In this document: positions 11,001 through 64,000 of the stretch, one piece after another
Layout: each line of letters begins with the position of its first letter
Position numbering within the stretch: position 1 is the stretch's first letter
NCBI GenBank assembly: GCA_000004985.1
Contig: GG738848.1
From: Naegleria gruberi
Lineage: Eukaryota
Direction: 5' to 3' (one strand)
Length of the DNA stretch: 64,000 nucleotides
Program-made: the position numbers and the translations under genes
Notes under the pieces: model-generated
The model's database searches: none
Told to the model about the DNA's origin: nothing
The model's input: only the letters and a program-made list of their open reading frames with translations

Positions 11001-13797
11001 TGAAATATTGAATCTTGTGGCAATAGCAACACCTGTAGATGGTTCAATAGTGATGACATCTGGTATTTTAGGTAAACTCAAAACAGGAATCTCAATAAAT
11101 GTAAAGAAATTTTGTAAACCATTTCTGAAATTCAAATCAACCGTAATTTTTGTAATATCCAATGACTCTAAACTCACAACAGTGCTCAGTGACAATGGAG
11201 GTGACAATAAAATTCCAAATTGATTTCCATTTCCGTTCAACATTCCATTTGAAGATTTCAATAATTGAGTGCTTGATAAACTTCTCAATTTGATTGAGTA
11301 ACTATAACTGAATGAACAATCTTGATAGAGACAATTGAAATCTGAAACTTGAGAATAATCAGATAATGTAATATTGGAAATAATTGCTGATAATTGAACT
11401 TGTTTGGAGGTGTGTAGGTAATAAGTTGGTATTCCATAGGATTCTAGAGATTGAACTGCTCTGAATGTTTGGGAGGTAACCTGTACTACAAAGTCAAACA
11501 ATTGAGATTTGATGGAAGTGTCAATTGTTGTACCATAAAGTGTAAAATAATAGCTACCAGTATTGACATTTGAAAAGTCCAATGAGAAGGAATCAGTACT
11601 TTGGAATGTAGTTACCAACTCACAATTCAAACATATTAATGTAAACATTAAGTTTTGAATTGGATATTCTGTGGCAGTGACAGTAGCTGTCACAACTTGT
11701 GAATCACCCTTGACAATTAAGGTAGATGATAAGGCTGCTGAAACATGGTAGATTAAAATATTTTGACAAACTGAACCTCCGTAAATAGGAATACAAGAAC
11801 AAACATCAGGAGCTGAACATTGACCATGCCCAGAACAAACAACATCTGACACTGAGGAATTTCCATAACAATTGAAGGATTGACATACGTCTCCATAATA
11901 ACCAGCTTGACAGAAACATTTGGTAGATGTCAAGGCCAATCCACCATGTGTACATTGATTAGAGATAGTTTGAGGAACATCATCGCTCAGTAACATACTC
12001 AAACTAAACTGGAATGAAGTTTCTAATGATTCTGAATTGTAATCATAGAAAGAAAGCTTAAACTGATAAGCACCGGCAATATCATAACTATTAAAACTTC
12101 CTTCAAGTGAATATTTCGAATAATTGTAAAAGTTTCTATCAAAAAAATGTTCGAAAGAATTCACAGAGAAACTCTGCACAATAGAACTTGTGGAATTTGT
12201 GTAAATTAAACTGCTAATCTCAAAATGGCTCTCCAGATATAAATCAACATTGACTTTTAGATTGGAATCGAATGAAACTTGGAAATTATTTGGATAGACT
12301 GAGAAATCAAAGTTTTGATTGTCAACAGTCAAAGATTGTGAAATACTTTGAGTGATCATCCACAAGTTAACACTCACAGTCGCATTGTATATATAGTTAT
12401 AACACAAATCACCATGAAAATGACCATCTTGATCAACATATTGAGCTGACAGCGAAATGTCAAGTTTCCAATAATTTCCAAAGGTTGTCTTTCTCACTGA
12501 CGAACTTTCCAACAGTGTACTCAAAGGAATATAATTAGATGTATACGATTGTGTCAGCTCAGTGTCATTCTTTTCTAAAAGTGTCAATTTGATAGATTTC
12601 TCTTCATGATAATTCATACAACCTGTCAAATCATAACCAGAATCATCAGAAAAGAATAACTGATGAGTGTACACATCTGATCTTCCATAATAGGCAATAA
12701 ACTTAATACCACTTCCATCTGGTGAAATAATTCCAGTAATGTTCACATTAGGATAATAATCAATGTCCATAGTTGAGTTGGTTGAGTTATTGTTTGTGGA
12801 ATTATTGTCAATGATTTCTTCGTAGAGTTTGAAGAGTTCTCGTTTGTGAGTGGTACTTGGTTTGGAATGTTGTATTTCGTCTGAATCGTCCATGATAGTT
12901 TTCAATTTGTTATTCGAATCGACCATACGAAGAGAACCAGTTCGTGAAATGTAGAAAATTTCTTCTTCGCCCCAAACTGGAGAAACTCTCAACTTCATAA
13001 CATCTAGGAAGGCATGTTTAGCAAGAGTTTCGTCTGGCGATTCATCGTGATACTTGTTCAATCTCCCACCAATAATATCAAAAGTCAAATCTGGTTGAAT
13101 TCTCTTAATAAAAGTTCCATCAGAACAATAAATTATTCCATGTTTGATGTCAAATGTAAAATAACCAAAAGCTGTTTACAAAGTTCAGTAATAATACAAT
13201 TATTCGAAACTTACTTCCTTTCACATCACGAATAGTACCATCTTCAATCTTTCTAATCAAATTTGTTCTGTAATCGTAGAAATAAATGGTTTCACTCATT
13301 GCGTCTTGAGCCACATGTCCAGGTCGAATACATTCGTCATCATTAGTTTCGTCCTGACATTCATATTTGCTTCCAGCGAGAATGACTTTGTATCCTGAAA
13401 GTAAACGTTTCTTGATGTGATTTCCAGTCGAGTAAATAATTTCATCATATTCAGTCATAAAAAAACTCTGAATTGTTTCTACACTTTCCTCTACAAGAAT
13501 TGACGAATCTCCAAATAAACTAAGCGAACGAATTTGTGTCTTGTTGTGAAGATAAAGCACATGTTGATTCTCCCCGCTTCCATCCACCAACTCTGATATT
13601 TTACATGCCTCTCCACATTCAAATCTTGCAACAATATTGTTATCCTTTAGTTTACGAATTTCTTCTCTATTCGAAACCAATAATTGTCCTTCTTTAGAGA
13701 ATGTGAAGGTGGTGGCAGTTGACTCCACATGGCTGTGCACCAACAACACCAACAACCAAGAAAATACAACCAAGATGCTCAAACAATTGCTTGCCAT
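8055..13797 (-). CDS. Adhesion-GPCR-like receptor with C-terminal RGS domain (signal peptide, beta-propeller-like N-terminus, EGF-like Cys repeats, S/T-rich stalk, GPS motif, 7TM, RGS); 2 exons
   Basis: Exon 1 is 13215-13797, from ATG; N-terminus MASNCLSILVVFSWLLVLLVHSHVES is a signal peptide. A 43-nt GTAAGT…AG intron lies at 13172-13214 (phase 1). Exon 2 is 8055-13171. EGF-like CFCQAGYYGDVCQSFNCYGNSS…CSGHGQCSAPDVCSCIPIYGGSVCQ. GPS-like CKFWDETCKNWKTKGMLFIGLTANQVNCSSNHTTKFSTFIEY immediately before seven hydrophobic helices. C-terminal FEKFCQSEFSTENIYLYDYLLN…FSRFITSQLYDDFLKQK matches the RGS-box consensus. Confidence 0.75.
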
Positions 13798-15061: not shown

Positions 15062-18000
15062 ATGAAAGAACCCGTCCAAAAATTGTCGCAGCATCAGCAT
15101 AATTATCAAGCACTTTATCATCTTCGGATTAATCATATGAAATTCTTATTCACCCTTATTAAAATCATTATACTAGCAACAACAACAATAATATTATTGA
15201 GTAGTAGTAGTGACAGGTTCTTATTAGTGGTTCTCTCGAGTAGTACGAGTGGTATTATCAATATTTCGCCGAAAAATCCACAACTTGACTCGGTGCAGTG
15301 GAATGATGAGAGGGAAATTTGGTTTGCACAATCTTGTCCTCTTTCTGGATCGAATAAGAGGTGAGTATTTTCATCACCATCATTGATAATTAATTTTTAT
15401 ATATTATTGATCTGTTTCAACGCTTGCAAATGAACTGTTCACTTCCTTAATATATATTACAACATCATTAATAATTTTTAACTGCTTGCACACATGTATA
15501 TAAAAGATTGGGCATTGAAATGAGGGATGGAATATTGGCTGCCTTTCATGAAGCCAATTCAATAGGAGGCATTTGGGGCTCTAAGAAATTAAAACTATTA
15601 ACTTTTGATGATGCCTACGAACCAACCAATACTAAACAGAATACCGACTTTTTCCTATACAATATAACACCACCGAATACTTCCCTTAATTATGAATCCT
15701 ATTTTTCACAGAATTCCCAATACAGAGAACAGATGAAGAATGTGAAATTGTTTGGATTGTTGGGATTTGTGGGAACACCAACAACTCAGGCTGTATTTGG
15801 AGATGTCGTTTCGAATTCCTTTCCTTTGATTGGGCCTTTTACTGGGGTTGGTTGGCTGAGAACACCATTCTACCCGAATGTTATTAATGTGAGAGCTTCC
15901 TACGATGATGAAACAGCTGCTATGGTCGACTGGCTGATAAATGTCAAGCTCATTAGAAAGATTAGTGTCATGTATCAAGCTGATAGTTTCGGTCAAGCTG
16001 GTTTGAATGGAATTAAACGAGCTTTGGTCGATTATCTCAAAATACCAATTCGCTCCATAGGTAGCTATCCAAGAAACACTCTTCAAGTAGAAGATGCATT
16101 TGCTGAAATTGGTAAAGGTTCACCTTCAGCAATAGTTTGCATTGGAACTTATGCTCCTCTGGCTAAATATATCAAAATGGTAAAGAACATGGCATTTGCA
16201 ACGAATGGAAATAATAATGGATATGAAAATGCTCAGGAAATAATCATCCTGACTGTTAGTTTTGTTGGTTCTTCTGCTTTGGTAAGTGAATTGCAGTCAA
16301 GCGCCCCAATTTCAAACAAGTTTGGCTCAAGTTATTATACAGACAATGTGGTCATTACACAAGTGGTTCCTTCACCATTTAATTTGAGTTATCCTATTGT
16401 GAGATCCTATCAAAAGGCAAGAAAATCATACATACTTTCGAATAATCCTTCGGCTAATCTTTCAGATTTTGTTCCCTCTTTCATAGAACTGGAAGGATAC
16501 ATTGTAGGAAGATTTGTAAACAGTGTGCTACAGAAAATGTCTGGAAATTTGACCAGATCAAACTTTTTAGCGACTTCCTATTTTGGAGGAAGTAGAGCTG
16601 ATGTTACAATTGCAGATTCTTCAATAGGAGATGCATCTGGAGGGGTTTTCAATTTTGATGGAATGCAATTGGGACCTTATAGATGGTGTGACTCAGTCAA
16701 TCTGATCGATATGAATTTACCTTATTCTAATGGTTTCGTATTACCAAGTCAAACTTCGGCCAGCAATAGCAGCGCATGTTCTTCTTTCAATTGTAATCAA
16801 GGAATGAAAGTTGTGTACAAGAGCTCTATCGACATCAAAAACTCCTCAGTTTCCTTTTCTGTATTTGGTGATTTATTTTCTTGGTATAATTACAAATCTG
16901 GAAGCTATTGCATTTCAGATCCAGTTCTTGTAAAGAAACCTCTTTTATTTGGCCAATCAATTAATACAGCATCAGGTGATTTCACTGAAGAACTCATGTT
17001 AAGAAAAGGAATTCTGGCTGCATTCGCTCTTCACAATCAAGGATTGACGTCAAATCAACAAAAATTAGAACTCTTAACAATGTATCATTCAGGAACAAGT
17101 GAAATGTTGAAGAATACGAAGGAATTTGTAGAGATTCATCATGCTCTTGGATTATTAGGATATTCTTCAACTAATTTGAATGTTGACATGTTGTCGAAAG
17201 CAATGACAGACAATTCATCTCAACTGAATGGTATTGCATTGGTGGGAACTGCTTCTACTATTAATTCGATGGATTTCAGATCAAGTTTCTTCCAAAATAT
17301 TATTCACGTTCATAGTTCCATTTTAGAACAATTAGGAACTATTGTGGATTACTCAATTAACACTCTAGGTAGAACAAGAATATCCATTGTTTATAGTAGG
17401 AATCAAGATTCGATGGCAGCTTATTCGATTCTTAACGAAATATTGTCAAGTTTAGATTTAAAACTTGATTCAGAATCGTGTATTCAAAACGAAACTTTTA
17501 TTTCAACTGATACAATCATCAGCGATCTATCTTTGAATGGAGCTAATCCTCAAATCATCATCTTTGCATTCCCTTCAAATGTAAATAATATTGGATCAAT
17601 CATTTCTTCCATTCAACAAACTTTTTCAACAGAACCAAAGTTTAGAAATGAATTGACCATATTTATGATCAATTCATTCTTTAAAGAAAATGTAGAGGTT
17701 GAAATATTACCTTGGATTTCATCTCCCAAGTTGGATAATGTCAAACTAATGTACGTGTCACATGTTCCATCCATAAATGGAACAGCTCACATTTCCATTG
17801 AAAAGTTTAAGGCAGCTATGGAGCTCTACTCTCCAGATCTTTCAAATTTATACAATACCAAAGTGTTGGAAGGTTTCTTTATAGGAAGTTTCATCAGTAC
17901 AATTATGGAAAATCTTGGAAATGAACCAACAAGTCAAAATTTAATCGAAACTATTTATAAGGTAAAGACATTTATCAATTTCCAGACTACTTTTGGTGCA

Positions 18001-20532
18001 TTTTCAGAGTCTTCCACAAGTCCATGTAATTTGGGAATGAGAATGAGTTATATTTATGGGCTTTCGAATAGTGGAGTTTCAGAGATTGCCACGAGAGATC
18101 ATTCTTCAAATTGTGGACTACACAGCTATGTTTCAACAAGAACTTCTGTCATTCACAGTAAGATAGATAGACCAATCTTACTTGGAAGATTAATTCCATA
18201 CAAAAAGGATGAAAATTCATTGCAAAATAAGATTGAATTGCTGAGTGAAGTTTCGACAATTGACATGGATGATTATGCCAGAGGATTGACTACCTATCTA
18301 AGTTATTTATCCTCAAAACAGTCTTACCAAAGTGTCAAGACCAAGAAAATCCACTTACTCACCGAGTATTACAGTTTAACCTCAAGTGGCAAAACTTTTT
18401 CGGACAAGTTGACAGCTCTCATCCAAAAGAATAAGATTTTCGCTCTCGTTGGTTCCATCATTAAATTCGACGAATCTACACTTAGCACTAATGACAAAAT
18501 AGATCAAATCTCCAAAATCCTTTCGAATAACAATATTCCACTCATTGATTCTCTGACAGGAAGTATTCGAATGAGGAAACCTTTTTCACAAATGTTTGTA
18601 AACATTGGTCCTTCGTTGTTGGATCAAGGAATTGCTTTTATTAATTATGCAAAGAGTAGATTTGGTCAAATTGCAATTGTTTATCAAGATTCAGAGTATT
18701 GGAAAGGAGCTTTGGATGAGATTGTAAACTTTTGTAGAATTGAATCGATTACAATAGGTCAATTGAGAGCTATAGATATTTTCAAGTCAATATCAGATCA
18801 AACAGATCATTTTGAGTCATTTTTGAAGGAGAAGGAAGATGTGGCTATATTTATTTTGGCAAATGACGTTCATTCAGCTGAAATTGTTAAATTGACATCT
18901 GTCACACACAAGGCAAATAGTTTTACTAATAATATCTTGTTTGGAATTCCTGTAGAGTCTGCTACCATTGATTTTGAAAGTGCAGTGATGAGCTGTTCCT
19001 CCCTTAGAAATGAAACATCTCCCTTGATTAGTAGTTTCGTTTCTGGTAAATCAGATTCTGAACTAATGTCAATTGTCAGCTCTTACATTTCATCAAACAA
19101 GTTATTAATTACCAAATCCATGTATTCACCCAACTACATCTCCCAAACTCATGATCAATACTCATTTTCCACAAGATTTTACACTCAATTTGCTGAATTT
19201 TCAAATTACCCAAAAGCAAATTATTTCACATTCGAAGGATACGTGATGGGTTACTTTATAGACATGATGATGGGTAGTATCTATCAATCTCAAGGTATAT
19301 CTGATCAAATATCTGATATTGCCTCTCAAGATTTATTAGACGCAATTTATTCAAATTCAGTTTTTGATATAATCTTTAAAAAGATTGGTCCTATGGGATA
19401 TACATGTTCTAACAATACAGAGGCAAGATCTACATGTGAAGATTCTTCCACTTTGGTTGTTGGTTGTGGGTGCAATCAGGGAGCCAAAGCGGTCTATTTG
19501 TCTGGATTGGCCAATTTCACACTTTCTTATAATCAAACTAATCTCAATTTCTTTGACATTTCTGATTATTCCCTGACTTTCAGAACATGTGGAGTTGAAG
19601 CTGTCGTTCCTTCCTTGTCCATCATTGCCATTATTTTCATTGTCATTGGTTCCTTACTCGCTGTATTTATCCTAATCCTTTCTCCAATTCTGAGCTATCG
19701 TTATTACATCTCCAAAAAGGCAATTAAGCATGCACCAACTTCCAAGAATGGTAAATTAGCTTGCTGTTTCACTGATGTCCAAAACTCTACCGTTTTGTGG
19801 CAATCCAATGAAAAGGCAATGAGAGAAGCTTTAGTCATTCACAATCAAATAATGAGACGAAACTTGGAATTATGCAATGGATTTGAAGTCAAGACCAATG
19901 GTGATAGTTTCTTTGTAGTTTTCAAAGATCCAGTCGATGCACTTGATTGGTGTGTCTCTGTCCAACATGATTTACTACATGCCAAATGGCCAGCTGATTT
20001 ATATAGTATGTGGGATTGTAGACCTGAATGGGATGAAGAAAGTAGACGAATGATGTGGTCAGGGGTGAGAGTTAGAATGGGATTACACTATGCACAGGCT
20101 GATTATGTCTTTGATAAGGTCATGAAGAGACCTGATTATTTTGGAACTTGTGTGAATACTTCTGCCAGAGTGGAGGCAATGGCCCATGGTGGACAGATTT
20201 TAGTGACTGAGGAATTCTTTTTGGAAACATGGAGGATTATGAAGACATATTTGTATTCGAATGTAAAGTTTCAGGAGCAGAATTATTATGGCTATGTCCA
20301 CGATATAACTTTGGCCATGTCGAATCCGTTATTGAGCCAAACTGCTTCCTTTACGCAAGATTCAAGTTTCAATAATACGAATAATACGAATAATACTTCA
20401 ATGGTTTCTGGAACTCAGAGTTCTTCGAGTGGAAACACTTCAAAAACTCCAAAGAGTACAGATGTTTCCAGAAAGTTAAATCTGAACGCTGCTTCTAAAC
20501 GAAAGAGACCTAAACATGCTGAGATGATTTAG
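15062..20532 (+). CDS. Receptor-type adenylate cyclase: signal peptide, large periplasmic-binding-protein-like extracellular domain, single TM, class III nucleotidyl cyclase domain; 2 exons
   Basis: Exon 1 runs to 15360. In-frame ATGs at 15062 (MKEPVQ…) and 15137 (MKFLFTLIKIIILATTTIILLSSSS, signal-peptide-like). Donor aag ag|gtgagt at 15361, acceptor …ataaaag| at about 15506 (phase 2; junction uncertain by ±1 nt). Exon 2 runs to the stop at 20530-20532. TM region is AVVPSLSIIAIIFIVIGSLLAVFILILSPIL. The cyclase domain KLACCFTDVQNSTVLWQ…EVKTNGDSFFVVF…GVRVRMGLHYAQADYVFD…YFGTCVNTSARVEAMAHGGQILVTEEF matches class III cyclase motifs (metal-binding D, transition-state N/R). Same architecture as trypanosomatid receptor ACs. 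Confidence 0.8.
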
Positions 20533-32088: not shown

Positions 32089-32160
32089 TAGCAAATCTAG
32101 GTTTCGATCCTAGGACCTATGGGTTATGAGCCCATCGCGCTTCCGCTGCGCCAATTTGCT
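32089..32160 (-). tRNA. Initiator tRNA-Met (CAU)
   Basis: Minus strand AGCAAATTGGCGCAGCGGAAGCGCGATGGGCTCATAACCCATAGGTCCTAGGATCGAAACCTAGATTTGCTA is 72 nt. It has A1:U72, anticodon loop CTCATAA with three G:C pairs in the anticodon stem, and T loop GATCGAAAC (A54/A60), the eukaryotic initiator hallmarks. It is near-identical in layout to human tRNAi-Met. Confidence 0.9.
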
Positions 32161-46292: not shown

Positions 46293-49200
46293 TTAATTAA
46301 AGGTTGTTTCCAGATTTTGATTATCAGCAGCAATCAAATCAGTTTGCAATTCGTCTGATTCTGCTCCATGTTTCAAAAATTCATCCAGGACATATTGTTG
46401 CTCAGCTTTGGAAATGTTAGATTTAGCATGATGCTTGGCACTCAAAAAGTAGCTTTGGGTTGGTTTTCCTTTAATCTCAATCTTCCTCTCCTCAAATTCA
46501 AAATCCAAATCATACACTCTCTCATAAGTTGATCTTGATAAATGAATCCTTCCAGGTTGAGAATTTGATTCCATTCTGGATCCAACATTAATAGTTTCCT
46601 AGAATGACATGTTTAAATATCAACAATACAGTATTGAAATACTTACACCCCACAAATCATATGCAAATTTCTTGGTGCTATTATTTGTTAATATTTAAAT
46701 TTCTAGAAACACTTACCCAATCACTCCAGCAATTGCAGCTCCAGTATTGATACCCACACGAATATCTACTTGATTAAAGTCAGAACTGGAAAAGGTATTT
46801 GCTTGAACTAATTCTTTCATTTTGGAAAGATTGAATTCTCTAATGACACTAAAAGTTTCAATACTAAATCTGAGTACTCTTTCTGGGTGATCACTAGCTT
46901 GCATCTATTAAATTATTATTAGAATTAAAAGAAGAAATGAATTATATACATACCAATCCTCCAACACAGAAATATCTAAATATTCAAATCCATAGAATTA
47001 ATGTCATAAACTAGAGTCTCGAATTTACTTACGCATCTCCAATAGTTTTAATCTTTTCCAATTCATACTTGTCAGTCAATTTATCGAATCCTGTAACAAT
47101 TGTACTCAACATTTGAACAACATCATTGGCACTAAGTGAGCTAGATAATTTAGTAAATCCAACCATGTCACTGAAAAAGCAAGTGATATCAGGCAACTTG
47201 TCAGCAATTAATTTCTCTCCCTAAAATAGATTAGATATTGATAAATATAAATAAATGTAATACTTACACTTTTCAATTGTCTGGCAACAGATTCTGGTAA
47301 CACGTTTCTCAGTAACTTTTCAGAATTCTTCTTCTCTTCAGCTAATAATGATTTTGACTTGTTTTCAGATGTGATATCTCTTATGAAACAGGTAATGACT
47401 CTGTTATTATCGAATAGAGTGTAGGAAATGCTCACTCTAGCTGGGAAAGTAGTCCCGTTCTTTCTTATACATTCCAAATCTAAAGTTTCTCCCTGAATGG
47501 CATTCTTTTCTGAGGCTAGTGAAGAATCTACTTGAACTCTATTTTCAATCAACTTTTTAATTGTTTCCTCACAATTTGGATTGAAGAGAGACCACAATGG
47601 TTTTCCAATTACATCCTCAGGCAATTTACCAAACATTCTTTGGGCTGCAGGATTGTAAACTTCAATATCATAATCATTACATGATACTGCTCCATCTACA
47701 GCAGAATTAAGAATGGACTTGACCTTTAAATCTTCAACCTCCTTCTTATTGAGACTGTTCGCGCCTCTAGAGGAGGAAAATATCTTGTGGTATAGAACAT
47801 AATTTCTCATTTCATCCTTTGCTTCCAAATGATCAATCTTGATATAGTTCAGCAACATTCTCACAGTTTGAACCTCATTAACATGTTTGTCAAAGGAGAG
47901 GACAAGTAAATAGCCAAACAGTGGAACTAAAAAAAATCCAATAACTCCAAATATTGTTACAATAGTAGAACTGTTATCTCTTTCTATGGAACTAACGTAA
48001 ATATTCATAAATTGTTCGAATTCCTTTGCCAACACTTTACAATCAGTGAAAAGTGCATGGAACTCTGGGAATATACTGTACATGTCCTTGTTCTTAGCAT
48101 TGTGCTTTTCATTGATAATAATTGATTCCAGATAGAGTTCATTCATCTTATCATTCAAGCTTGTACACTTCATGGTAGTCGAATTTGAATTTTCACAGTG
48201 AGCTCCCTTGATGAGATTGTCAACCTCAGAAAATAACCCAATTAGTGGCGCAGCATTGGTTGTAATATCGCCATACAATAGCAAATTCCACTCCTTACTA
48301 ATCTTCTTCTTGATTTCATAAACTGATTCATGATATTCAACAACTTCATCCATTGAAAGTAATTTCTTAGAGTTGATTGAATATGTATCGTACGGAAGAA
48401 CAGAAAATATTAAAACCTCTCCAACTTTCCCTGTAATATCATGAGCATCTACTGAGATTGATGCAGAACGTTCCACATTTCTCATAATTCTCTCAGTTTT
48501 ATCAGAGGTAACAAAAACTTCATAAAAGAACATGGAAAAACACAAACAAGTAGTAATGAAAATAAGAGTTGTAAATAACGATGCTCTAAACTTGGGATTG
48601 TTGGTAAAGTTGGATTTGTATGCTCCCTCTCCATTCTCTGCATATTTCGTAGCCATTTGGTGGTAGATCTTTCCAAGAGCATCTTTAGGAATTGTCTTTT
48701 CAACGAGTTTTAACACGGATTTCAAAGATCTCATTATCAACAAGTTGAATATCAACATTAGACCACAAGATATTACTAGTAATCCCAAAGAGCAGAAATA
48801 AAAGTACATGAAAGCATTATTGGTATTACTGACAGTGGCATAGGATCTATCTACAATGTTTGAGCAAAACTCTTTGAATACTGAACTGAAAATATCTCTA
48901 TTGTGCCAAAAATACATGGCTTTGTAATTGGAGAGAGTATTGTTATACTGCTGAGGTGTATAGGTATTGATTTCCTTTAAAAATTGTATCAAAGTGTTGG
49001 TGATTGCTGAAATGGAAGTGTTAAATTGATGTGCAACAGTGTATTCTCCTGGGTATGGACCAATAACAGGATTATAGAAAAGGACACTACTCTCTGAATA
49101 ATCATGAAACATGTCATCACTCATTAAGTCATTCAGAGCGCTGTTTTGAAGCTCCTGTAATGAAGCTAATACATCTCGAATTCTTTCTTTGTGCTCAGTT

Positions 49201-51668
49201 GAAAAGTTGGCCGCTCCTGCATCAATAAGAGATTGAGGCATCATCTGTACTGCATTGTTATTATATAAAGTGAATAGTAATTGCTCCATTCTTATGTCTA
49301 ATTGCATACTCAATGTGGTAATAGAAGGCATACAGGATATTTTGATTAATTTCACATCACTTGTTGAGTTTACCAATAAGGCGATGGAGAAGGAAAAACC
49401 AATAATAAACAATAAGAAAAACAGAGCTATAGAGGATATAATGCAAGAGTAGGTAAACTTATTGTCAGAAGGAGTGGCAAGAGCTGATCTGTACAACATT
49501 TCCTTTTTCAATTGTGGATCTTCTGCAGCTTCCAATCCCATTTTGTCACCAAAATCTTCCTCAACAAATTCTTTTGAATAACCATTTTCCAATCCGTCAA
49601 TCTTTGGTTTTGTAGAGTTTTTTTCCATATTTTTGATTTTAGAAGAGAGTGAGGCTGCACTCTTGGAAATTGATGATCTACTGTCTATTGAAGATCTTGA
49701 ATCATCGTGTGTGGCCCTCTCTTTCAAAGGTACTACCTTATTTCGCATGGAACCTTTTACACCACCAACTGGAGCTTTTGAAATTCGTATCTCTCCTTTT
49801 ACAGTTTCTTCATTCTCAATATCATTGGCTTCCTGATACAATTCTCCTGCTCTCAAATTGTTAAAAAGAATGTTATCAAGGAATTTGCCATACATTCTTA
49901 GAACATTCTTGTCATTACTGAAATCTTTCATCAGATTTTCAAAGGTATTCTCAGTATTAAAGGTCAATTCTGTGATTTTTCTGTTAATTTCCATAACCTT
50001 ACCGTAATTGATTTCCATATTGAAAAATTCCTTCCAAATAGCTTTGTGAAGAGCTAGAATGGAATTGTATTGCTTTTCCAGCTTGGCAAGGATGTGTTTC
50101 ACGTCAACAATACTCATTCCATGTGAAGAATCACTGTTTCTTGATTTGTGGAGTGAAGTTTCAATTTCTTTCAATCTTTCTCTCAAAGTTATTCCTGAGA
50201 AGAAATTCAATTTTTGTTGTTTAACTCTTCTCAATAATCCCAAAGCATATTCATGTGAACCTTCTTCCCAAATGTAAGAAGCTATCAAAGCTGATGAAAT
50301 AATCAATTCTGGTTCTGCAAATGATTTGTGTTGAGCAACTGATTTGATGAATGAAACCGCCAATTGTCTATCACTAATATTATATGCATTTGGCGATGCC
50401 TTCTTACCAGAAAACATTGCAAACTTTAAAAATAGTCCAAGTCTATTCAGTCTCTTTTGCTCCACAAAAGATTTGAAGAGAGAATGACCTCCCCGCTCAA
50501 AATATGTCAATACTGACATTCCAGACCTATCATCAATAGATTTTTCATAACAATCATTCAATAGCATCAACATTTCCTTTCTGATTGAATAATAGAAAAA
50601 CCGTGTGTATGCCTCCATCAAAACAAATCCCCCTAGAAAGCCAATAATCATCAGACCTACTGGAATGAAAGTAAAACCAAGTCCCATATCCCATGAATCA
50701 TTTGAATTTAAAAGAAATGCAATCATTGACCCTATTGGTGAAAGTACCTTTGCAAACAAAACTCCACTCCAAATTGAATTTTCCATTCTCACAAAATAAG
50801 GCAAAAAGTAAAACAAGCAGGGAGCTATGGTTATGGATAACACAATATGAAGCACTGATCTTCCATACATGTACTGATTTGGAATTACATAATTCAATAA
50901 AATTTGCAATTGACTAATTGATAAAAACATGGAAAAGAAGAATGGTGATTCCATTATAAATGGTGATGTGTTTTTCAAATGAGTATTTCCTAATATTTGT
51001 CCATAAATAATAGTATTAACAATAGAAATCAAGATACCAATAATTCCAATAACCATCAAAACAATAGAAGCAACTGATTGGCACATTACAGATGGAGCTC
51101 TCATCAATACATTCTGAGGGTCATCATAATTCTCAAATGACATTTGTGTGGTATAGTCACAATCGAGAAAGGATGTCATTGCAAAAGTACCAATCAAACA
51201 CACAAAGAATTGAATATTTCCATAGTAAAATATACAATTTCTCAATAGTTTCATATTTCTACTTGCAATTTCAACAGATTTAGCTGTCAAGACAAAAATC
51301 ACAAGTCCCAAAATTGAAAAGCAAACAAACAAAACCTCAAAAGCAATTAACCCCTCATAAGGAACCTTATCAATTGACAAGGTTATCAAATAATTAAAAA
51401 CTCTCCAAATCCAATCGCCATATTCTCCCCAATGAAATGAACCCAACATTCCAATTCCCAACGAGGCCAAAATTACATAAACATTCAAGACAACAAAATA
51501 AATGTAATTCTTCATTCCCTTCCGAGGAGTTTTATCTTCAATTGAGACAATCATTGAGAAGATACTCTCCTTCAATTTTATAAGACTCTCCCTTCTTGAA
51601 GTATAACTCGATGAAGAGGAGGTAACTGAGGTATTGGCAGAAGAGCCCATATAGTTACTTTCAGCCAT
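46293..51668 (-). CDS. Multi-pass membrane PAS-domain class III nucleotidyl (adenylyl/guanylyl) cyclase; 6 exons including 22-nt and 31-nt micro-exons
   Basis: Exon 1 is 47268-51668 from ATG: >10 hydrophobic helices in two clusters, then a PAS-like region (…DIEVYNPAAQRMFGKLPEDVIGKPLWSLF…ECIRKNGTTFPARVSISYTLFDNNRVITCFIRDITSE) and LLRNVLPESVARQLKS. Intron 47221-47267. Exon 2 is 47033-47220 (GEKLIADKLPDITCFFSDMVGFTKL…EKIKTIGD). Intron 46976-47032. Micro-exon 46954-46975 (AYFCVGGL, completing the GDAY motif). Intron 46905-46953. Exon 4 is 46717-46904 (MQASDHPERV…VGINTGAAIAGVIG). Intron 46678-46716. Micro-exon 46647-46677 (TKKFAYDLWG). Intron 46599-46646. Exon 6 is 46293-46598 (ETINVGSRMESNSQPGRIHLS…). 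All junctions are GT-AG with consistent phases, and the spliced product restores the canonical cyclase motifs. Confidence 0.8.
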
Positions 51669-57610: not shown

Positions 57611-57993
57611 TTATAATAGTAATTTCGGATTAGTTTTTATAATATAGTATTCAACAATTTCATTTCAATTTTCTGTATATACAACCTCATTGTATAACAC
57701 AACATTACCCATTGTGTGGGGAGCATATCGAACGATTCGATATCAAGAACTCTTGTGTCAATAAAAAATATTTAATTAATAATGAATTGCTCTCTCTCGC
57801 TCGCTCAAATGCTCAAGAAGTAACATCCTCGCACTTTCTCACTCGAAAATTTCAATTGAATCAAATTATTCTTATTATTGAATTATTCCAAAATATTTGT
57901 TTGAATCAATTTCATAGTATTTGTTTGTTTGGTCAAGACTTTATGTTCTCGCAAAAAGTAGAACTCCATCAATTTACTTCTTTAAAACTTTTG

Positions 57994-60900
57994 TTAAAAA
58001 AAATGCCAAGAACAAACCCAGGTGCTCAAAAAAAGAGATCCAACTCTGCCATTGACTTGACCGAAGAAGATGAAGTTGTCCAAATCTCAGACGAAGAGGA
58101 AGAAGTTATAAAAAAGAGGAATGAAAGGCTACTTCAAAAACAAAGGGAAGCCATGATTAGATACGAACGAGCACAATCAGAGACTAGTTTCAATGAGGAA
58201 TTTACTCAGATAGCCTCTGAATTGTACACTCTCACAAAACACAATGAAAGTATGGAAACTCTCATCACACAAATTGATAGATTAAATATTAAAGATCCCA
58301 TGGAAGAAACGGAAAAATCAAAGATTGATTTATTGGCAGAGCAAATCATTAAACAGAGTGATGATATTGTTAGTTTTAATGTTTCCGGACAAGTATTTAC
58401 CACAACAAAAGGAACCATAAGAAGAGAGAAGGAATCATTCTTGACAGTCTTGATTGATGAAAATTCACATCTTCCATTCGACACGGATGAGTCTGGTGCT
58501 TTTATTATTGAAAGAAGTGCCTTGTTGTTTTCCTATATTTTGAAATATTTGCAAAATTTGGATGAATTTACAGGTGAATTTGATATTGATATTTTACCAA
58601 AGGAAAAGACTGTGTTGAATGCATTGTTAGAAGAGGCTAAATTCTTCAGTCTTTCCAATTTGATAGAAGTTCTAGATAAGAACAACTCTGCTCAAATGTT
58701 GGAGGGTAGATCAGCTGCTAGACTTGTGGATGTTTGGAATTATGGAAATATTGTACGTGATGCTGTTGTGAGTGATGAATATTTGGATCAAATCAAGGAA
58801 AGAGTTCAAAGGCGTAAGGAGCAATTGAATCAACAACGAGAAATGATCAAGAATTTGGTAGAAAATCAACAGAAAAAACAAGTTGAAACCAGAAGAAATG
58901 AATTAGAATCAAAATTAGCTCAAATCAGACAAGATTTAGGAAAAGTTGATTCCTTGACAGTTTTCTTTTCAATTAGTGGAACAATATTTGAAATGGATAT
59001 CTTTCAAGTTTTCAAATTCAAAGAGTCCTTGCTTTGTAAGATTGTTCAAAAATATAACATACCAATTCAAGAAACAAAATCTCGTCCAATTTTCATTGAT
59101 AGAGAACCTGAACAATTCACACACATCAAATATTTTATTGAGAATGAGTGTCTTTCAGAGGATTTATTGTATGGTCGTTCTTATAACAAGAAGGCCCTTC
59201 TCAAGGAGGCTGCTTTTTATAACATTACAGATTTGGTGAAATATTTAGATCCAGTTTACAGATTCCCAATTGAAGAGCTTGGATCACATAACGTCGTCAT
59301 GAAAAGAGAGGAAGACCTACTGAGATCATACTTTGCTACAAATAGAGATCATCCATTGCTGAGCGATCCTTATTTACATTTAATTAATGTATTCGACAAT
59401 TTGGATACTTTCAAAAAACAGCCATTCCCTGATCGTGGAAACATTTTATTCAAACAGTATTCTGATCATTTATTTGTTGAATCCAGAGAGGAGTTTGAAT
59501 TTAACTTTAATTGTTTTACGAAAGGAATTTTTAATGGTATGTAATATTGATAATACTTTAAAAATTAATAGAAATGTTAAGGCATGGATTGGAATGGAGT
59601 TATTATGGCAGGCGGTAGTGTGCTAGCTTGTTTATCATCTGTTCCTGCTGAATCATTTAGAACAACTCAGAAACCAACTTTTTACCTTGATAACCGAAAA
59701 AAGAAGACTCAACTCGAGGATTTAATCCCCAACAATCTTATTGAACCAACTGCAGAAAAGGAAGCAAACTTGCCACATTCTGCTTATTACAAGGCAAGTG
59801 ATATCAAGATGGATTTATTGGGAAAGTCATATTTTTACAATAGAGCAGACACTCATCCATTTGCTGATTCAGATATCGATATATTCCTTTATGGACTTTC
59901 TGAAGAGGAGGCAGAAAGTAAAATCAGACATATTTACGAAACAATTAAGAAGAATACCAAATCAAATATTGTTGTCATGAGGTCATCCATGACAATCACG
60001 ATGCAAGTATGTGATTTTAGACCCGTACAAATTATTTTGAGATTGTACAAGAGCCCTTCTGAGGTATTGATTGGATTTGACGTTGATTGTTGTGTAAGTT
60101 TTCTTAGTATTGCATAATTTTTGTAATATTAGCAAGTGTTTTGCATTTGATGGATCTGAGGTGTTTTGTTTACCTAGAGGTAGAAGGTATGTTTAATTAT
60201 TTGCTTACTATCATCTAAATTTCATTTCAGATCTGTTGTCCATAGTGTGAACTTTGTTGATATTGACAACAATCTACCACCTATGAAAATAGACTTTACA
60301 AATATGCAGGTCGTAAGTATGATAAATCAAATGATAGTCCCTTAACAAAATAATAGGTGGATTTAAGGTGTGTGTTGTTGGGATGGACTCTGATAAAATT
60401 GTGAGAGAGGGTTTGCGTCCAGATGATTCATATTTAAACAATTTTCCTAGTTCAAACTTTGATGTAGTAAAGGCAGATTTCACAAACAGTAGAGGTCTTG
60501 CCAGATTGCTGCTTTTGGAGAAGAAGTCCACCTATATTCTTGGGGAAAAAGATCAACGAGTAACGGAGAATACAATTATCAAATTTACCGCTGAGGAGAG
60601 ACAAAAGTTGTTATTTAATAATTGGGATATGGATAGTGATTATCTTGGAGTTCTTATAGCATTCAAGTATAGAGGAGTACCAACATTCTTTTCTGATTTA
60701 TTGGAAATGTTACAATCTGGCTTAACTCAAACCAAATTGATAATGACTGTGGATGAAATTGAAACTATTCTTAATATTCCTGACCAAAAGCTCGCTCAAT
60801 GTGAACTTACCAAGAGAATTGAGTGGATTAAGATTGATCCAGGTATGTTTTATTTTCTAAAATCTTTTCCAAATCTAATATTTCAAAAAAAGGTCGACAA

Positions 60901-61344
60901 TTCATTGGATCTTTCAAACCAGTAATTGATAACTTTTTTGAGGATTGTTACTTTACCAATGCAGAACTCGTTAAAAGAAGAAAGGAGGCAAACAAACCAA
61001 TCCGAGTTAAATGGTACACACAATCTGGAAGCTTGTTTCCAATTAGCCGTGAAAAAGAAACTGAAGAGGCATATCAAATCTATCTCAAAGACAAATCAAA
61101 GAATATTTTCACTTACACGTCTCCAAGTAATTCAATAATGTCTAGGTTTTTTACTAACCCAACCATTAATTTTGACACAATGAGATCAGATATTTCTAGA
61201 TTAGTAAGATTTGAAATACCATATGCTTCTCATATTTACCCAAGCACAGAAGCATCAATTGCTGGTATTAGTCCAACACCTATTCTATCTAATAATCTAG
61301 AATTGGGCACAATGAAACCACGTATTATCATTGAGGATCTATAA
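57994..61344 (+). CDS. Double BTB/POZ (KCTD/T1-like) domain protein fused to a large uncharacterised C-terminal region; 6 exons
   Basis: ATG at 57994 (MPRTNPGAQKK…); the 57712 track start is a non-ATG codon. Exons are 57994-59536, 59582-60093, 60137-60186, 60231-60312, 60368-60842 and 60965-61344, with 43-122-nt GT-AG introns and consistent phases. Two T1/BTB-like segments: IVSFNVSGQVFTTTKGTIRR…FIIERSALLFSYILKYLQN and LTVFFSISGTIFEMDIFQV…IFIDREPEQFTHIKYFIEN. The C-terminal ~500 aa (…AGGSVLACL…SDIDIFLYG…GFDVDCC…) has no family I can assign. Confidence 0.6.
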
Positions 61345-61678
61345 AAGGTAGAATGTAATGCACTGCGTCTTGCTTGTCTCTTTTCAATCTCTCTACGTTC
61401 AAAATTAAAGCTCTGTCAACAATCTAGATATTCGAATATCTCTTTTAAAAAACCTAAATTGTTACAAAGAGATTAGGCAAGACCTTAAAAGGTTTGGCAA
61501 GATGAAACACACAACTCATATTAAACCACATGCTAACTGCTGGCGTTAATTGCCTACTCATAAAAAACAGTTCAAATTGTGTTGACAGATTTATTCGAAA
61601 CAGATTGAAAATCAAGCATAGACAATCGGGTTCAACCACAGCTAATTAACATTCTTCCGCCACAGCAACTACTAGAAA

Positions 61679-64000
61679 ATGGAAACAATCGGCTTTAAAT
61701 TATTAAACAAACAAAAGAAAAATCACAAACCATCTGTAATAGTTTCGAATACTTCCGAGAGACAAATGCCACACCAAAAGCAAACACTGGATTCATCGTT
61801 TTATTCATCAACAGATTCTTCATGCAATATCATGAATGAATCGGCAACTAACTATGAAGATTATCAGTTTAGTTTCGAAAAATTGTACAGAGAAAAAGAA
61901 ACTAGATTATTAATGAAGGAATACATGGAGATGGGTAAGTAATTAGTTTCTTCATCAACCAACAATTATTTTGAAATCTTCTTGTTTTAAATCTGAACGT
62001 TGTGATTGCGACACATTCATACAAATTTGGTAATCGTCTACTTTGGTGAAAATTGTGGATTTTTTGTTCTGTGGCCATGATTAGAAATGCACTCACCTGA
62101 GAGCTTTAAATTCTTGGACAACATTGAATCCTTAAAGCATTCCTGTCAAAATATTCCATCCTCATCGACACAACAATTGATTGACCAATTTCTTGATCAA
62201 ACTTTCTCAATAATTGAAACATTTATTCTACCTCAATCAGAAATGGAAGTGAATATAGGAAGAAAGGAGAAGGAAGTTGTCATGTTGAAATACAAACAAC
62301 TCCAGAGTCAATGGTCAGAAAGTTCTTCAGCAATTCTTGAACCTGTCAAAATTTGGGAGATTTTTGAAGAAGCAAGAATTGTAATAATGACAGAATTGAA
62401 ACAGGACGTATTTCCAAGATTTATCAGATCTCAAAGGTTTATTAGCTTTATACAGACTCATGATAAGGAGTTCCTTGATAAGATTGGTTTGAATCTTGGT
62501 AGAAGAATTTCAGATACAGTTTCAGTTTCTTCAGACGAATCAAGTGGAAATTCCACTACTCAAAGAAAGAAAGTAACAGTAGATTATAGTGTCAGACCTG
62601 AATTTTATTGGAAAAATTATCAAGCAGATGCTTCAATTCATAACATTACTCAACAAGATGTCAAATTTGTTAACTCATTGACATTAGACAGCAATATTTG
62701 GCAATTATTTAAAGTTGGTGACAAGAAAAAGGGAGAATACTTTGCCAGTTTCGTTTCCAAACAGAAACTCTCAGTTTTCAAACCTGATTCCACAACAGAA
62801 CGACAAGTCAACCCTCAGAAATTATACAAATTCACAGGTGTCATTAATCATTCCTTAGAAGAATTGTTATTCACACTGACAAACCCTGCCTACATGATGG
62901 ATTACGACAATCAACTCAGTGTCGTTGAACAACTTGATTATCTCAATGGATTTGATTATTCTAGCTCAATTTCAGTTCAAGGATCCTCAAGCGCATTTTG
63001 GGAAAATGAAAATTTTGATGATTCGAGTTCTGATGGTGGATTGAGTGTTGATTCACAAAGTAGTACTTCTCCAAAGGTATCTCATTCGGATGATAAGTTT
63101 AGTTCTTCCATTTGCTTGGAAACTTATCCTTTCGGATGGCCAATTTCGAATAGAGATTTTCTTGTAACTCAATCACTTATATACGAAGCTAAAACTCAAC
63201 GATATATTTTGGTAAAAAAGTCAATTTCTCATCCAAATTATCCAAAGAGAAAGGGAACTACTCGTGGATTCATTGTTGGTGGATGGACCATTCAGAGAGT
63301 GACTGAAAATCAAACAAGATTTTGTTTCGTCAGCTTTACTGATATGGATTTAAACGAAAGGGTGTTTAATCAACTTTGTAAAAAGAAGGGAAAACGTTTA
63401 TTTGATGGATTGAATCAAACTCTGGATAGAAATTCTGAAAATGGTTTTCTTAGACCTTTATTCTCATGTGGATTATTGGAAACTTTGGAAGATTTCTTGA
63501 AATTCTACAAATTACCTGAAACTATTCTCAACGAAACTCAAGTCCAAGTATTGAAAAAGCAAAAGAGCGACAAATTCAAGAGTTTCGAAATTGATGGCTC
63601 ACTCGTTCGATTAATCTACGTTTCCAGATATGACGAATCCAAACTTTCTTCCAAAGATTTCGACCAAATCAATCAAGTTTCCAATAGAAACAACCAACCA
63701 CTGAACTTGAGTGGTATCCTTCTCAGTGGTCAAGGCGTTTTCTATCAAGTCCTCGAAGGAGATCCAAAATTCATTTATCCAACCTATGAAAGAATCAAAA
63801 AAGATTCGAGACATTTCGATGTTTGGTGTGTGAGTGAGGAAAGTGGAGTTAAGGAATGTGAAAGACAGTTTTCTAATTGGGCCATGAAATGTGTTGATTT
63901 GGTGAATAGTGATCATTATTTGGCTCAGTTTATGAGAAATATAATCGAAACCTTGTCGAAACTTTCAAAAGCTTCAAGAGATTCGACTAATTGGGATGAA
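61679..64000 (+). CDS. RGS-START-BLUF multidomain protein (5' partial; runs off the window end); at least 2 exons
   Basis: Exon 1 is 61679-61934 (ATG METIGFKLL… to …SFEKLYREKETRLLMKEYMEM). A 150-nt GTAAGT…TTAG intron lies at 61935-62084 (phase 1). Exon 2 runs from 62085 to >64000 with no stop; I translated it by hand. It is absent from the ORF track because it lacks a terminal stop. The RGS box spans the intron (SFEKL…FKFLDNIESLK … FEEARIVIMTELKQDVFPRFIRSQRFISFIQ). A START-like lipid-binding domain follows (…NIWQLFKVGDKKKGEYFASFVSK…PISNRDFLVTQSLIYEAKTQRYILVKKSISHPNYPKRKGTTRGFIVGGWTIQRVTENQTRFCFVSFTDMD…). Then a BLUF domain LVRLIYVSRYDESKLSSKDFDQINQVSNRNNQPLNLSGILLSGQGVFYQVLEGDPKFIYPTYERIKKDSRHFDVWCVSEESGVKECERQFSNWAMKCVD has the conserved Tyr (IYVS), Gln (FYQVLEG), DxRH, and W/M (SNWAM). 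Confidence 0.8.

What the first reader, a model, noticed from the sequence alone, without database searches (positions are those of the whole stretch)
61679..64000. RGS-START-BLUF fusion gene: a candidate blue-light-regulated GTPase-activating protein for G-alpha
The C-terminal segment 63597-63900 encodes a textbook BLUF flavin photoreceptor domain with all photocycle residues: Tyr in LIYVSR, Gln in FYQVLEG, DSRH, and Trp/Met in SNWAM. Upstream in the same continuous frame are a START-like lipid-binding domain and an RGS box split by a 150-nt intron. Known BLUF effector pairings are cyclases (PAC), EAL phosphodiesterases and stand-alone BLUFs. I am not aware of a described BLUF fused to an RGS domain. 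Such a protein would couple light to heterotrimeric G-protein shut-off and would be an attractive optogenetic tool. The gene continues past nt 64000, so a further effector domain such as a cyclase may follow.
Basis: partly seen in the sequence, partly recalled or inferred. Interest (0 to 1): 0.9.

Follow-up and report, generated by a model that had tools for sequence, protein, structure and literature searches.

The report
Naegleria RGS–START–BLUF blue-light sensor gene
The window ends in a real Naegleria gruberi gene that joins a G-protein "off-switch" domain, a lipid-binding domain and a blue-light flavin sensor in one protein; its function has never been tested, but the domain pairing is already in the literature and no cyclase follows it.

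Summary

- The gene stops 21 codons past the window, so no cyclase follows.
- BLUF–RGS pairings were catalogued in silico by Kaushik et al. 2019, and the N. fowleri orthologue is in GenBank as a BLUF protein.
- The window is N. gruberi NEG-M. Its public model XP_002681899.1 is a chimera with the upstream BTB gene. That model splices out half of the RGS box, so Pfam sees no RGS in it.

The same architecture occurs in N. fowleri, Willaertia magna, Acrasis kona (at least 4 paralogues) and metagenomes. It sits inside a larger RGS–START family that lacks BLUF.

The most likely function is a blue-light-modulated GTPase-activating protein for Gα. This is inferred, not shown. I rate it a new member of a catalogued but uncharacterised kind, of moderate interest.

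The parts
61679..61934 (+). Exon 1. It runs from ATG at 61679 (a stop lies two codons upstream in frame) and encodes aa 1-85 plus the first base of codon 86. The N-terminal ~58 aa are low-complexity. From nt 61871 it encodes RGS helices alpha1-alpha2.
   Evidence: Its C-terminal part aligns to the N-termini of Willaertia P0003 and N. fowleri P0006. Against strain contig L001, all its indels are multiples of 3.
61935..62084 (+). Intron of 150 nt, GTAAGT...AG, phase 1. Retention gives G-K-stop.
   Evidence: It diverges 6.7% from L001, against 0.47% for exon 2. The Willaertia orthologue has no intron here and is colinear. The public model instead uses a distal AG, with the exon starting at 62241, which deletes 52 conserved RGS residues.
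62085..64000 (+). Exon 2, open to the window end. By L001 and P0004 the ORF continues 21 codons further to a TAA stop, for about 745 aa in total.
61871..62440 (+). RGS box (aa 65-204, interrupted by the intron). Equivalents of the RGS4 G-alpha-contact residues are present: S89, E91, N142 (= RGS4 Asn128; codon 62252-62254), D193 and R197. There is a ~20-aa insert between alpha6 and alpha7.
62441..62596 (+). Ser-rich, poorly conserved linker between RGS and START (aa 205-256).
   Evidence: Only 16-20% identity to the orthologues. The equivalent stretch in the full-length orthologue model has low pLDDT.
62597..63439 (+). START (helix-grip) domain, aa 257-537. It carries a disordered Ser/Asp-rich insert at aa 373-425 (nt 62945-63103) and a C-terminal lid helix with a conserved KKKGKR patch. 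It is the most conserved part of the protein (62-70% identity to the N. fowleri orthologue).
63440..63601 (+). Conserved helix (SCGLLETLEDF, aa 546-556) followed by a basic, flexible linker to BLUF.
   Evidence: The START-BLUF linker has pLDDT below 50 in the orthologue model.
63602..63889 (+). BLUF domain (aa 592-687). Key codons: Tyr597 at 63617-63619, Ser618, Asn622, Gln640 at 63746-63748, Trp684 at 63878-63880, Met686 at 63884-63886.
63908..64000 (+). Helix alpha3 after BLUF (aa 694-712), which aligns to the OaPAC/bPAC alpha3 helix, and the start of a last helix that ends outside the window.
   Evidence: alignment. The orthologue model has two C-terminal helices. C-terminus taken from L001 and P0004.

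Best explanation
What it is. This is a two-exon Naegleria gruberi gene for a soluble flavin photoreceptor of about 745 aa. The domain order is N-terminal RGS box, START lipid-binding domain, flexible linker, then a C-terminal BLUF domain with two trailing helices.

Proposed mechanism (inferred, not shown):
1. Blue light rearranges the hydrogen-bond network around Tyr597, Gln640 and the flavin, and switches the Trp684/Met686 strand.
2. This changes how the BLUF beta-sheet and its C-terminal helices dock or oligomerise.
3. That alters the availability of the RGS-START module at the membrane, either by unmasking the G-alpha-binding face or by changing START or basic-patch membrane association.
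4. The rate at which the RGS box accelerates GTP hydrolysis on G-alpha therefore changes.

Why this would matter in Naegleria. Some Naegleria G-alpha subunits exchange nucleotide spontaneously, so GAP activity rather than a receptor sets their GTP level. A light-tuned RGS would then act as the receptor itself.

Origin. The RGS-START pair is an older module, with many BLUF-less paralogues. BLUF was added to its C-terminus in Heterolobosea.
For: Shown by tool results:
- One continuous spliced frame.
- All three domains are identified.
- The BLUF photocycle residues are conserved across the family.
- The Asn128 equivalent, N142, is present in all 11 of the 12 family members that still have the RGS box.
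- The architecture is colinear in four heterolobosean species plus metagenome sequences.
- 36 of the 155 relatives collected carry RGS and START without BLUF, including N. gruberi paralogues XP_002673728 and XP_002674183.

From the literature:
- N. fowleri has 13 G-alpha subunits, some self-activating, and its RGS domains act as GAPs on them (PMC9283941).
- Fungal RGS-LOV proteins couple a flavin photocycle to membrane binding (PMC6099885).
- Blue light induces Acrasis kona development, and BLUF genes are up-regulated during its aggregation (PMC11589745).
Against: - No biochemical or transcript data exist for this protein or any orthologue that I could find.
- RGS4 Asn88 and Leu159 are replaced (S92, E189), and an insert sits between alpha6 and alpha7, so GAP competence is not certain.
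- BLUF is at the C-terminus, joined by a low-confidence linker, so no signal-transmitting element to the RGS is evident.
- The sign of regulation (light on or light off) cannot be predicted.
- START is the most conserved domain and RGS the least. This could mean the lipid-binding domain is the real output.
Confidence: 0.5

Rival explanations
1. The lipid-binding START domain is the regulated output. Light gates lipid binding or transfer, or membrane docking. The RGS box only targets the protein to G-alpha-GTP at membranes, effector-like, without light-dependent GAP control.
For: START is the most conserved domain among orthologues (62-70% against 36-43% for RGS). It carries a conserved basic patch on its lid helix. 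RGS-LOV proteins signal by light-switched lipid binding. In N. fowleri and Entamoeba, canonical RGS boxes also serve in G-alpha effectors such as RGS-RhoGEF.
Against: The GAP-critical Asn is strictly kept in every family member that has an RGS box. The fold is closest to GAP-active R4 RGS boxes. No START ligand can be inferred.
Confidence: 0.25
2. The BLUF domain is not a working light sensor here (a constitutive dimerisation or flavin/redox module), and the protein is simply one of the many Naegleria RGS proteins.
For: One Acrasis paralogue (P0091) has Phe for the Tyr and Ser for the Gln, so degenerate BLUFs do arise in this family. No photochemistry has been measured.
Against: In the N. gruberi protein and 10 of 11 aligned relatives, Tyr, Gln, Trp and Met are all present, along with the flavin-binding Asn622 and His662. 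BLUF scores 82.5 bits and is 37-52% identical across the family, except 33% to P0027.
Confidence: 0.1
3. It is a photoactivated adenylyl cyclase (BLUF plus cyclase). This is the reader's suggestion for the part beyond nt 64000, and the name that the Acrasis relatives carry.
For: The BLUF and its alpha3 helix are most similar to OaPAC and bPAC. Acrasis paralogues are annotated 'photoactivated adenylate cyclase subunit alpha' or 'pacA'.
Against: The ORF ends 21 codons past the window. Pfam finds no Guanylate_cyc domain in any of the family members checked individually, the Acrasis ones included, and none of the 76 relatives scanned reports a cyclase family.
Confidence: 0.01
4. Gene-model artefact: the domains belong to separate transcripts, or the gene is really fused to the upstream BTB gene as in the public model XP_002681899.1.
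For: The public N. gruberi model joins the BTB gene to this one. No RNA evidence was available here.
Against: The RGS C-half, START and BLUF lie in one 638-codon open frame. The upstream gene has its own stop at 61342-61344. It is followed by 334 nt with 6-7 stops in every frame and 6.3% divergence between strains, against 0.5-0.75% in the flanking coding sequence. Orthologues in N. fowleri and Willaertia start just before the RGS box, and Willaertia has a different upstream neighbour, a Myb gene.
Confidence: 0.03

Closest known systems
Naegleria fowleri BLUF-containing protein (BAV14116.1, 'sensors of blue-light using FAD'; XP_044556937.1 / A0A6A5BB65)
   Same: It is the orthologue: 48% identity over the whole length with the same RGS-START-BLUF order. 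Pfam scores all three domains at or above threshold.
   Different: It is from a different species, and no intron information is available. As far as I recall (Yasukawa et al. 2013, not readable here) it was reported only as a BLUF protein that is not a PAC. No function has been tested.
BLUF-effector catalogue of Kaushik et al. 2019 (Appl Sci 9:3924)
   Same: It lists 'regulators of G-protein signaling' among BLUF-coupled effectors, as quoted in PMC12562191.
   Different: It is in silico only. I could not read it, so I cannot say which organism it cites or whether START was noticed. The broken public N. gruberi model shows no RGS in Pfam.
Fungal RGS-LOV photoreceptors (BcLOV4; Glantz et al. 2018, PMC6099885)
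   Same: An N-terminal RGS domain is followed by a blue-light flavin sensor, with a link to membrane lipids.
   Different: The sensor is LOV (a cysteinyl-flavin adduct), not BLUF. Lipid contact is made by a polybasic amphipathic helix plus a DUF, not by a START domain. The lineage is Dikarya, so the origin is independent.
Photoactivated adenylyl cyclases (OaPAC, bPAC, N. gruberi NgPAC1-3)
   Same: They have the most similar BLUF sequences, including helix alpha3 (E 6e-19 to 1e-17).
   Different: In PACs the BLUF is N-terminal and drives a C-terminal class III cyclase. Here the BLUF is C-terminal and there is no cyclase.
DLC / STARD8, 12, 13 RhoGAP-START proteins
   Same: A GTPase-activating domain is followed by a START domain in one polypeptide. 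The StarD13 START is among the structural matches.
   Different: The GAP acts on Rho rather than G-alpha, and there is no photosensor.
7TM-RGS proteins acting on self-activating G-alpha (AtRGS1; N. fowleri 7TM RGS1-4, PMC9283941)
   Same: Signal input is made at the RGS/GAP step rather than at nucleotide exchange. One such gene lies in this window at 8058-13088.
   Different: Their sensor is a transmembrane or extracellular region, not a cytosolic flavin domain.

Membership tests
BLUF (PF04940) | Profile match above the curated threshold | tested here: met
   82.5 bits against a cut-off of 25, covering profile positions 1-92 of 92.
BLUF (PF04940) | Photocycle Tyr and Gln, the Trp/Met strand, and the flavin-contacting Asn | tested here: met
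   Y597, Q640, W684 and M686 align to OaPAC Y6, Q48, W90 and M92. N622 and H662 are invariant in the family.
BLUF (PF04940) | Beta-alpha-beta-beta-alpha-beta-beta ferredoxin-like fold | tested here: met
BLUF (PF04940) | Binds FAD or FMN and shows a reversible ~10 nm red shift | not testable with these tools
   Needs recombinant protein and spectroscopy.
RGS (PF00615), canonical GAP-type | Profile match above the curated threshold | tested here: met
   38.7 bits against 23.9 for the spliced product. A profile of three orthologues hits RGS8 at E 1.6e-9 over the whole box.
RGS (PF00615), canonical GAP-type | Nine-helix RGS-box fold, closer to R4-type RGS than to RH domains | tested here: met
RGS (PF00615), canonical GAP-type | G-alpha switch-contact residues (RGS4 S85, E87, N88, N128, L159, D163, R167; numbering from my memory of RGS4) | tested here: inconclusive
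   S89, E91, N142, D193 and R197 are kept, but N88 is replaced by S92 and L159 by E189.
RGS (PF00615), canonical GAP-type | Accelerates GTP hydrolysis on a G-alpha | not testable with these tools
   Needs a GAP assay with N. gruberi G-alpha subunits.
START (PF01852) | Profile match above the curated threshold | tested here: not met
   No START hit for this protein even at E <= 1. Relatives do pass or reach the cut-off of 22: N. fowleri 22.0 bits (exactly at the cut-off), Acrasis kona 23.5, metagenome P0008 27.8, and 38 of 76 relatives at E <= 0.001.
START (PF01852) | Helix-grip fold with N- and C-terminal helices around a nine-stranded curved sheet | tested here: met
START (PF01852) | Hydrophobic tunnel that binds a lipid | not tested
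Photoactivated adenylyl cyclase | BLUF fused to a class III cyclase catalytic domain | tested here: not met
   The ORF ends 21 codons after the window. There is no Guanylate_cyc hit in the full-length proteins.
RGS-LOV (BcLOV4 class) | LOV domain with an adduct-forming cysteine | tested here: not met
   No PAS or LOV hit; the sensor is BLUF.
RGS-LOV (BcLOV4 class) | Light-switched binding to anionic membrane lipids | not testable with these tools
   Only conserved basic patches are seen (KKKGKR on the START lid helix; KKQKSDKFK before BLUF).

The most novel reading that the evidence does not exclude
RGS-START-BLUF proteins are the first natural photoreceptors in which a BLUF domain directly gates heterotrimeric G-protein signalling. 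In heteroloboseans with self-activating G-alpha subunits, they act as cytosolic light 'receptors' by switching GAP activity, or its membrane recruitment through START. They would underlie blue-light behaviour such as light-induced development in Acrasis. They would also provide a single-component optogenetic G-alpha off-switch.
Probability: 0.35. Interest if true: 0.8.

Novelty: new member of a known kind. Interest (0 to 1): 0.55.

Why it matters
If light really tunes this RGS, it would add G-alpha inactivation to the short list of natural BLUF outputs (cyclases, EAL phosphodiesterases, anti-repressors). It would show that input at the GAP step, known from plant and protist 7TM-RGS proteins, can also come from a soluble photosensor. 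It would also offer a compact optogenetic tool comparable to BcLOV4.

There are practical gains already:
- The corrected gene model restores an RGS box that the public N. gruberi annotation destroys.
- The middle domain is identified as START.
- Several Acrasis kona proteins named 'photoactivated adenylate cyclase' are shown to be members of this cyclase-less family.

Tried and rejected
- Transcript evidence. I scanned metagenome contigs for either spliced junction with an IUPAC pattern covering both acceptors. The six hits are 51-67% GC contigs with no homology to the protein, so they are chance matches.
- The search for homologous proteins with the family alignment and with the BLUF region returned almost nothing new. 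The word index limits it, so the family census rests on the exhaustive representative search.
The START model therefore uses the contiguous window translation, and the full-length model is of the Willaertia orthologue.
- The AFDB Foldseek library was unavailable.
- Kaushik et al. 2019 could not be read. Its content is known only through a quotation and my memory. Yasukawa et al. 2013 is not in the library.
- The Acrasis kona supplements held as text do not mention BLUF or these accessions, so I could not link the aggregation-induced BLUF genes to this family.
- I tested whether the PAS_9 domain of the gene at 47211-51668 is a LOV domain. It has no NCRF cysteine motif.
- The cyclase-continuation idea was rejected.

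Full report
**Observation**

The last 2.3 kb of the window carry a + strand gene. An ATG at 61679 follows a stop two codons upstream in frame. It opens an 87-codon ORF that runs into GTAAGT at 61935. Splicing 61934 to 62085 removes 150 nt (GT..AG, phase 1). If the intron were retained it would give G-K-stop. The spliced frame stays open for 724 codons to the window end. Exon 2 alone is 638 stop-free codons in DNA where 6% of codons are stops, a chance of about 1e-17.

Pfam scores the spliced product as follows:
- BLUF: 82.5 bits against a cut-off of 25, aa 592-687, nt 63602-63889.
- RGS: 38.7 bits against a cut-off of 23.9, aa 65-204, spanning the junction.
- START: no hit.

**Gene model and source**

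The window is Naegleria gruberi NEG-M. Protein XP_002681899.1 (EFC49155.1, D2V1F0, 1284 aa, 'predicted protein') contains the window's sequence exactly. That public model is a chimera, for two reasons.
- It joins the upstream BTB_2 gene to this gene by an 'intron' from 60843 to about 61813. This skips the upstream gene's last exons, its stop at 61342-61344 and a 334-nt spacer.
- It uses a distal acceptor (exon start 62241) that deletes 52 residues of the RGS box.

As a result Pfam sees BTB_2 and BLUF in it but no RGS.

- The Willaertia magna orthologue is an intronless 1935-nt ORF, colinear through this point.
- N. fowleri XP_044556937.1 has the same residues.
- Adding exon 1 raises the RGS score from 27.7 to 38.7 bits.
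- Against a 98.1% identical environmental contig (L001), divergence is 0.47% in exon 2, including the disputed 62085-62240 stretch. It is 6.7% in the intron and 6.3% in the spacer.
- Exon 1 is variable, but all its indels are multiples of three.

L001 and XP_002681899.1 both show that the ORF ends 21 codons beyond nt 64000 (...NWDEENHALDVLYQASKQLNDSSKN, then a TAA stop). A convergent gene follows. No cyclase or other domain follows.

**BLUF**

The closest solved sequences are the photoactivated cyclases OaPAC and bPAC (E 6e-19 to 1e-17). The alignment runs through helix alpha3. Y597, Q640, W684 and M686 align with OaPAC Y6, Q48, W90 and M92. Ser618, Asn622 and His662 are also in place.

In a 12-sequence family alignment W684, M686, N622 and H662 are invariant, and Y597 and Q640 are at least 90% conserved. 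The single exception is an Acrasis paralogue with Phe and Ser at these two positions.

**RGS**

A profile of three orthologues matches RGS8 at E 1.6e-9 across the whole box. RGS17, RGS7, RGS1, RGS5, RGS2 and RGS4 follow, and the GRK RH domains score lower.

Using RGS4 numbering (from my own memory of the sequence), the contact residues map as follows:

| RGS4 residue | This protein | Status |
|---|---|---|
| Ser85 | S89 | kept |
| Glu87 | E91 | kept |
| Asn88 | S92 | replaced |
| Asn128 | N142 | kept |
| Leu159 | E189 | replaced |
| Asp163 | D193 | kept |
| Arg167 | R197 | kept |

An insert of about 20 residues lies between alpha6 and alpha7.

**START**

A model of window aa 250-580, built with 80 relatives, has pLDDT 86.7 and pTM 0.84. 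It shows helix-grip topology with a disordered insert at aa 373-425.
- Foldseek returns only START domains at the top: STARD10 6.8e-12, then STARD5, STARD4, CERT, StAR and ACOT11.
- Pfam START reaches or passes the threshold in the N. fowleri orthologue (exactly at the cut-off), an Acrasis kona relative and a metagenomic relative, and hits 38 of 76 relatives overall.

START is the most conserved part of the protein: 62-70% identity to N. fowleri, against 52% for BLUF and 36% for RGS.

**Family**

An exhaustive HMMER search with the RGS+START part found 173 cluster representatives at E <= 0.001. By local phmmer, among the 155 proteins collected:
- 36 carry RGS and START without BLUF.
- 18 carry a BLUF domain: 10 as RGS+START+BLUF and 8 as START+BLUF. 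Several of the latter are fragments.

Named members with BLUF are:
- N. gruberi (this gene).
- N. fowleri.
- Willaertia magna: KAL9658754, and KAL9658275, in which no RGS box was detected.
- Acrasis kona: KAL0486363, KAL0480502, KAL0484174 and KAL0490722.

Three of the Acrasis proteins are mis-named 'photoactivated adenylate cyclase subunit alpha' or 'pacA', although they have no cyclase domain. BLUF-less RGS-START paralogues exist in N. gruberi (XP_002673728, XP_002674183). The likely history is therefore an older RGS-START module to which a PAC-like BLUF with its helices was added at the C-terminus within Heterolobosea.

**Mechanism (inferred)**

N. fowleri has 13 G-alpha subunits, some with exchange faster than hydrolysis. 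It has 28 7TM-RGS proteins and 79 other RGS proteins, and its RGS domains are demonstrated GAPs (PMC9283941). In such a system the GAP step is the control point.

The best reading is that blue light, through the BLUF hydrogen-bond switch and its beta5 strand and C-terminal helices, changes intramolecular docking, oligomerisation or membrane association of the RGS-START module. This would change G-alpha-GTP lifetime.

The fungal RGS-LOV protein BcLOV4, which binds anionic lipids on illumination (PMC6099885), is the nearest characterised analogue. DLC-type RhoGAP-START proteins are a precedent for pairing a GAP with START.

What argues for caution:
- The flexible START-BLUF linker (pLDDT below 50).
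- The unusual C-terminal position of BLUF.
- Two substituted G-alpha-contact residues.
- The higher conservation of START than of RGS.

The main rival is that START-dependent lipid binding or localisation is the real output and RGS is only a targeting module.

**Prior knowledge**

No paper in the searchable library combines BLUF, RGS and Naegleria, or uses 'RGS-BLUF' or 'BLUF-RGS'. However, a review quotes Kaushik et al. 2019 as listing 'regulators of G-protein signaling' among BLUF-coupled effectors. The N. fowleri orthologue was deposited as a BLUF protein (BAV14116.1). From memory, it was described by Yasukawa et al. 2013 as a BLUF-containing protein that is not a PAC. Bosch et al. 2022 do not mention BLUF or START among Naegleria RGS proteins.

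The pairing is therefore catalogued but functionally uncharacterised. As far as I could check, three things appear to be new:
- The corrected N. gruberi gene model.
- The START assignment.
- The recognition of a heterolobosean RGS-START(-BLUF) family.

**Verdict**

I rate it a new member of a known (in silico) kind, with interest 0.55.

Noticed in passing
window 57712-61344 (+) together with 61679-64000: The public N. gruberi model XP_002681899.1 (NAEGRDRAFT_45871, 1284 aa) fuses a two-BTB_2 (KCTD-like) gene to the RGS-START-BLUF gene and deletes half of the RGS box. The BTB gene has its own stop at 61342-61344.
   Followed up: yes
window 62240/62241 versus 62084/62085: Both candidate 3' splice sites read AG|AAATG and give the same 'EM' junction. 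The distal one would yield an in-frame isoform lacking RGS helices alpha3-alpha5. Alternative splicing is conceivable but unsupported.
   Followed up: partly
window 8058-13088 (-): A 1677-aa ORF has EGF-like repeats, a GPS motif (24.4 bits) and a C-terminal RGS domain (36.8 bits). This is the adhesion-GPCR-like 7TM-RGS type described in N. fowleri.
   Followed up: partly
window 15508-20529 (+): A 1674-aa ORF has periplasmic-binding-protein and ANF-receptor domains plus a class III adenylate/guanylate cyclase catalytic domain, so it is a receptor-type cyclase.
   Followed up: no
window 47211-51668 (-): A 1486-aa ORF has TPR_TmcB repeats and a C-terminal PAS_9 domain (E 3.5e-18). It lacks the LOV NCRF cysteine motif. 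The ORF ends in LLRNVLPESVARQLK, which looks like the start of a cyclase domain continued in a further exon.
   Followed up: partly
Acrasis kona proteins KAL0486363.1, KAL0480502.1, KAL0484174.1 (P0013, P0024, P0044): They are annotated 'photoactivated adenylate cyclase subunit alpha' or 'pacA'. They contain RGS and BLUF (plus START in P0013) and no cyclase domain, so the names are misleading.
   Followed up: yes
Acrasis kona KAL0490722.1 (P0091): This paralogue has Phe in place of the BLUF Tyr and Ser in place of the Gln. It is probably a photochemically dead BLUF within the same architecture.
   Followed up: partly
L001 (ENA metagenome ERZ929261, contig k127_405076): This environmental contig is 98.1% identical to window 60679-64000. 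It indicates a close N. gruberi-like strain in that sample, and was useful as a within-species comparison.
   Followed up: yes
window 32089-32160 (-): A tRNA-Met (CAT) gene.
   Followed up: no
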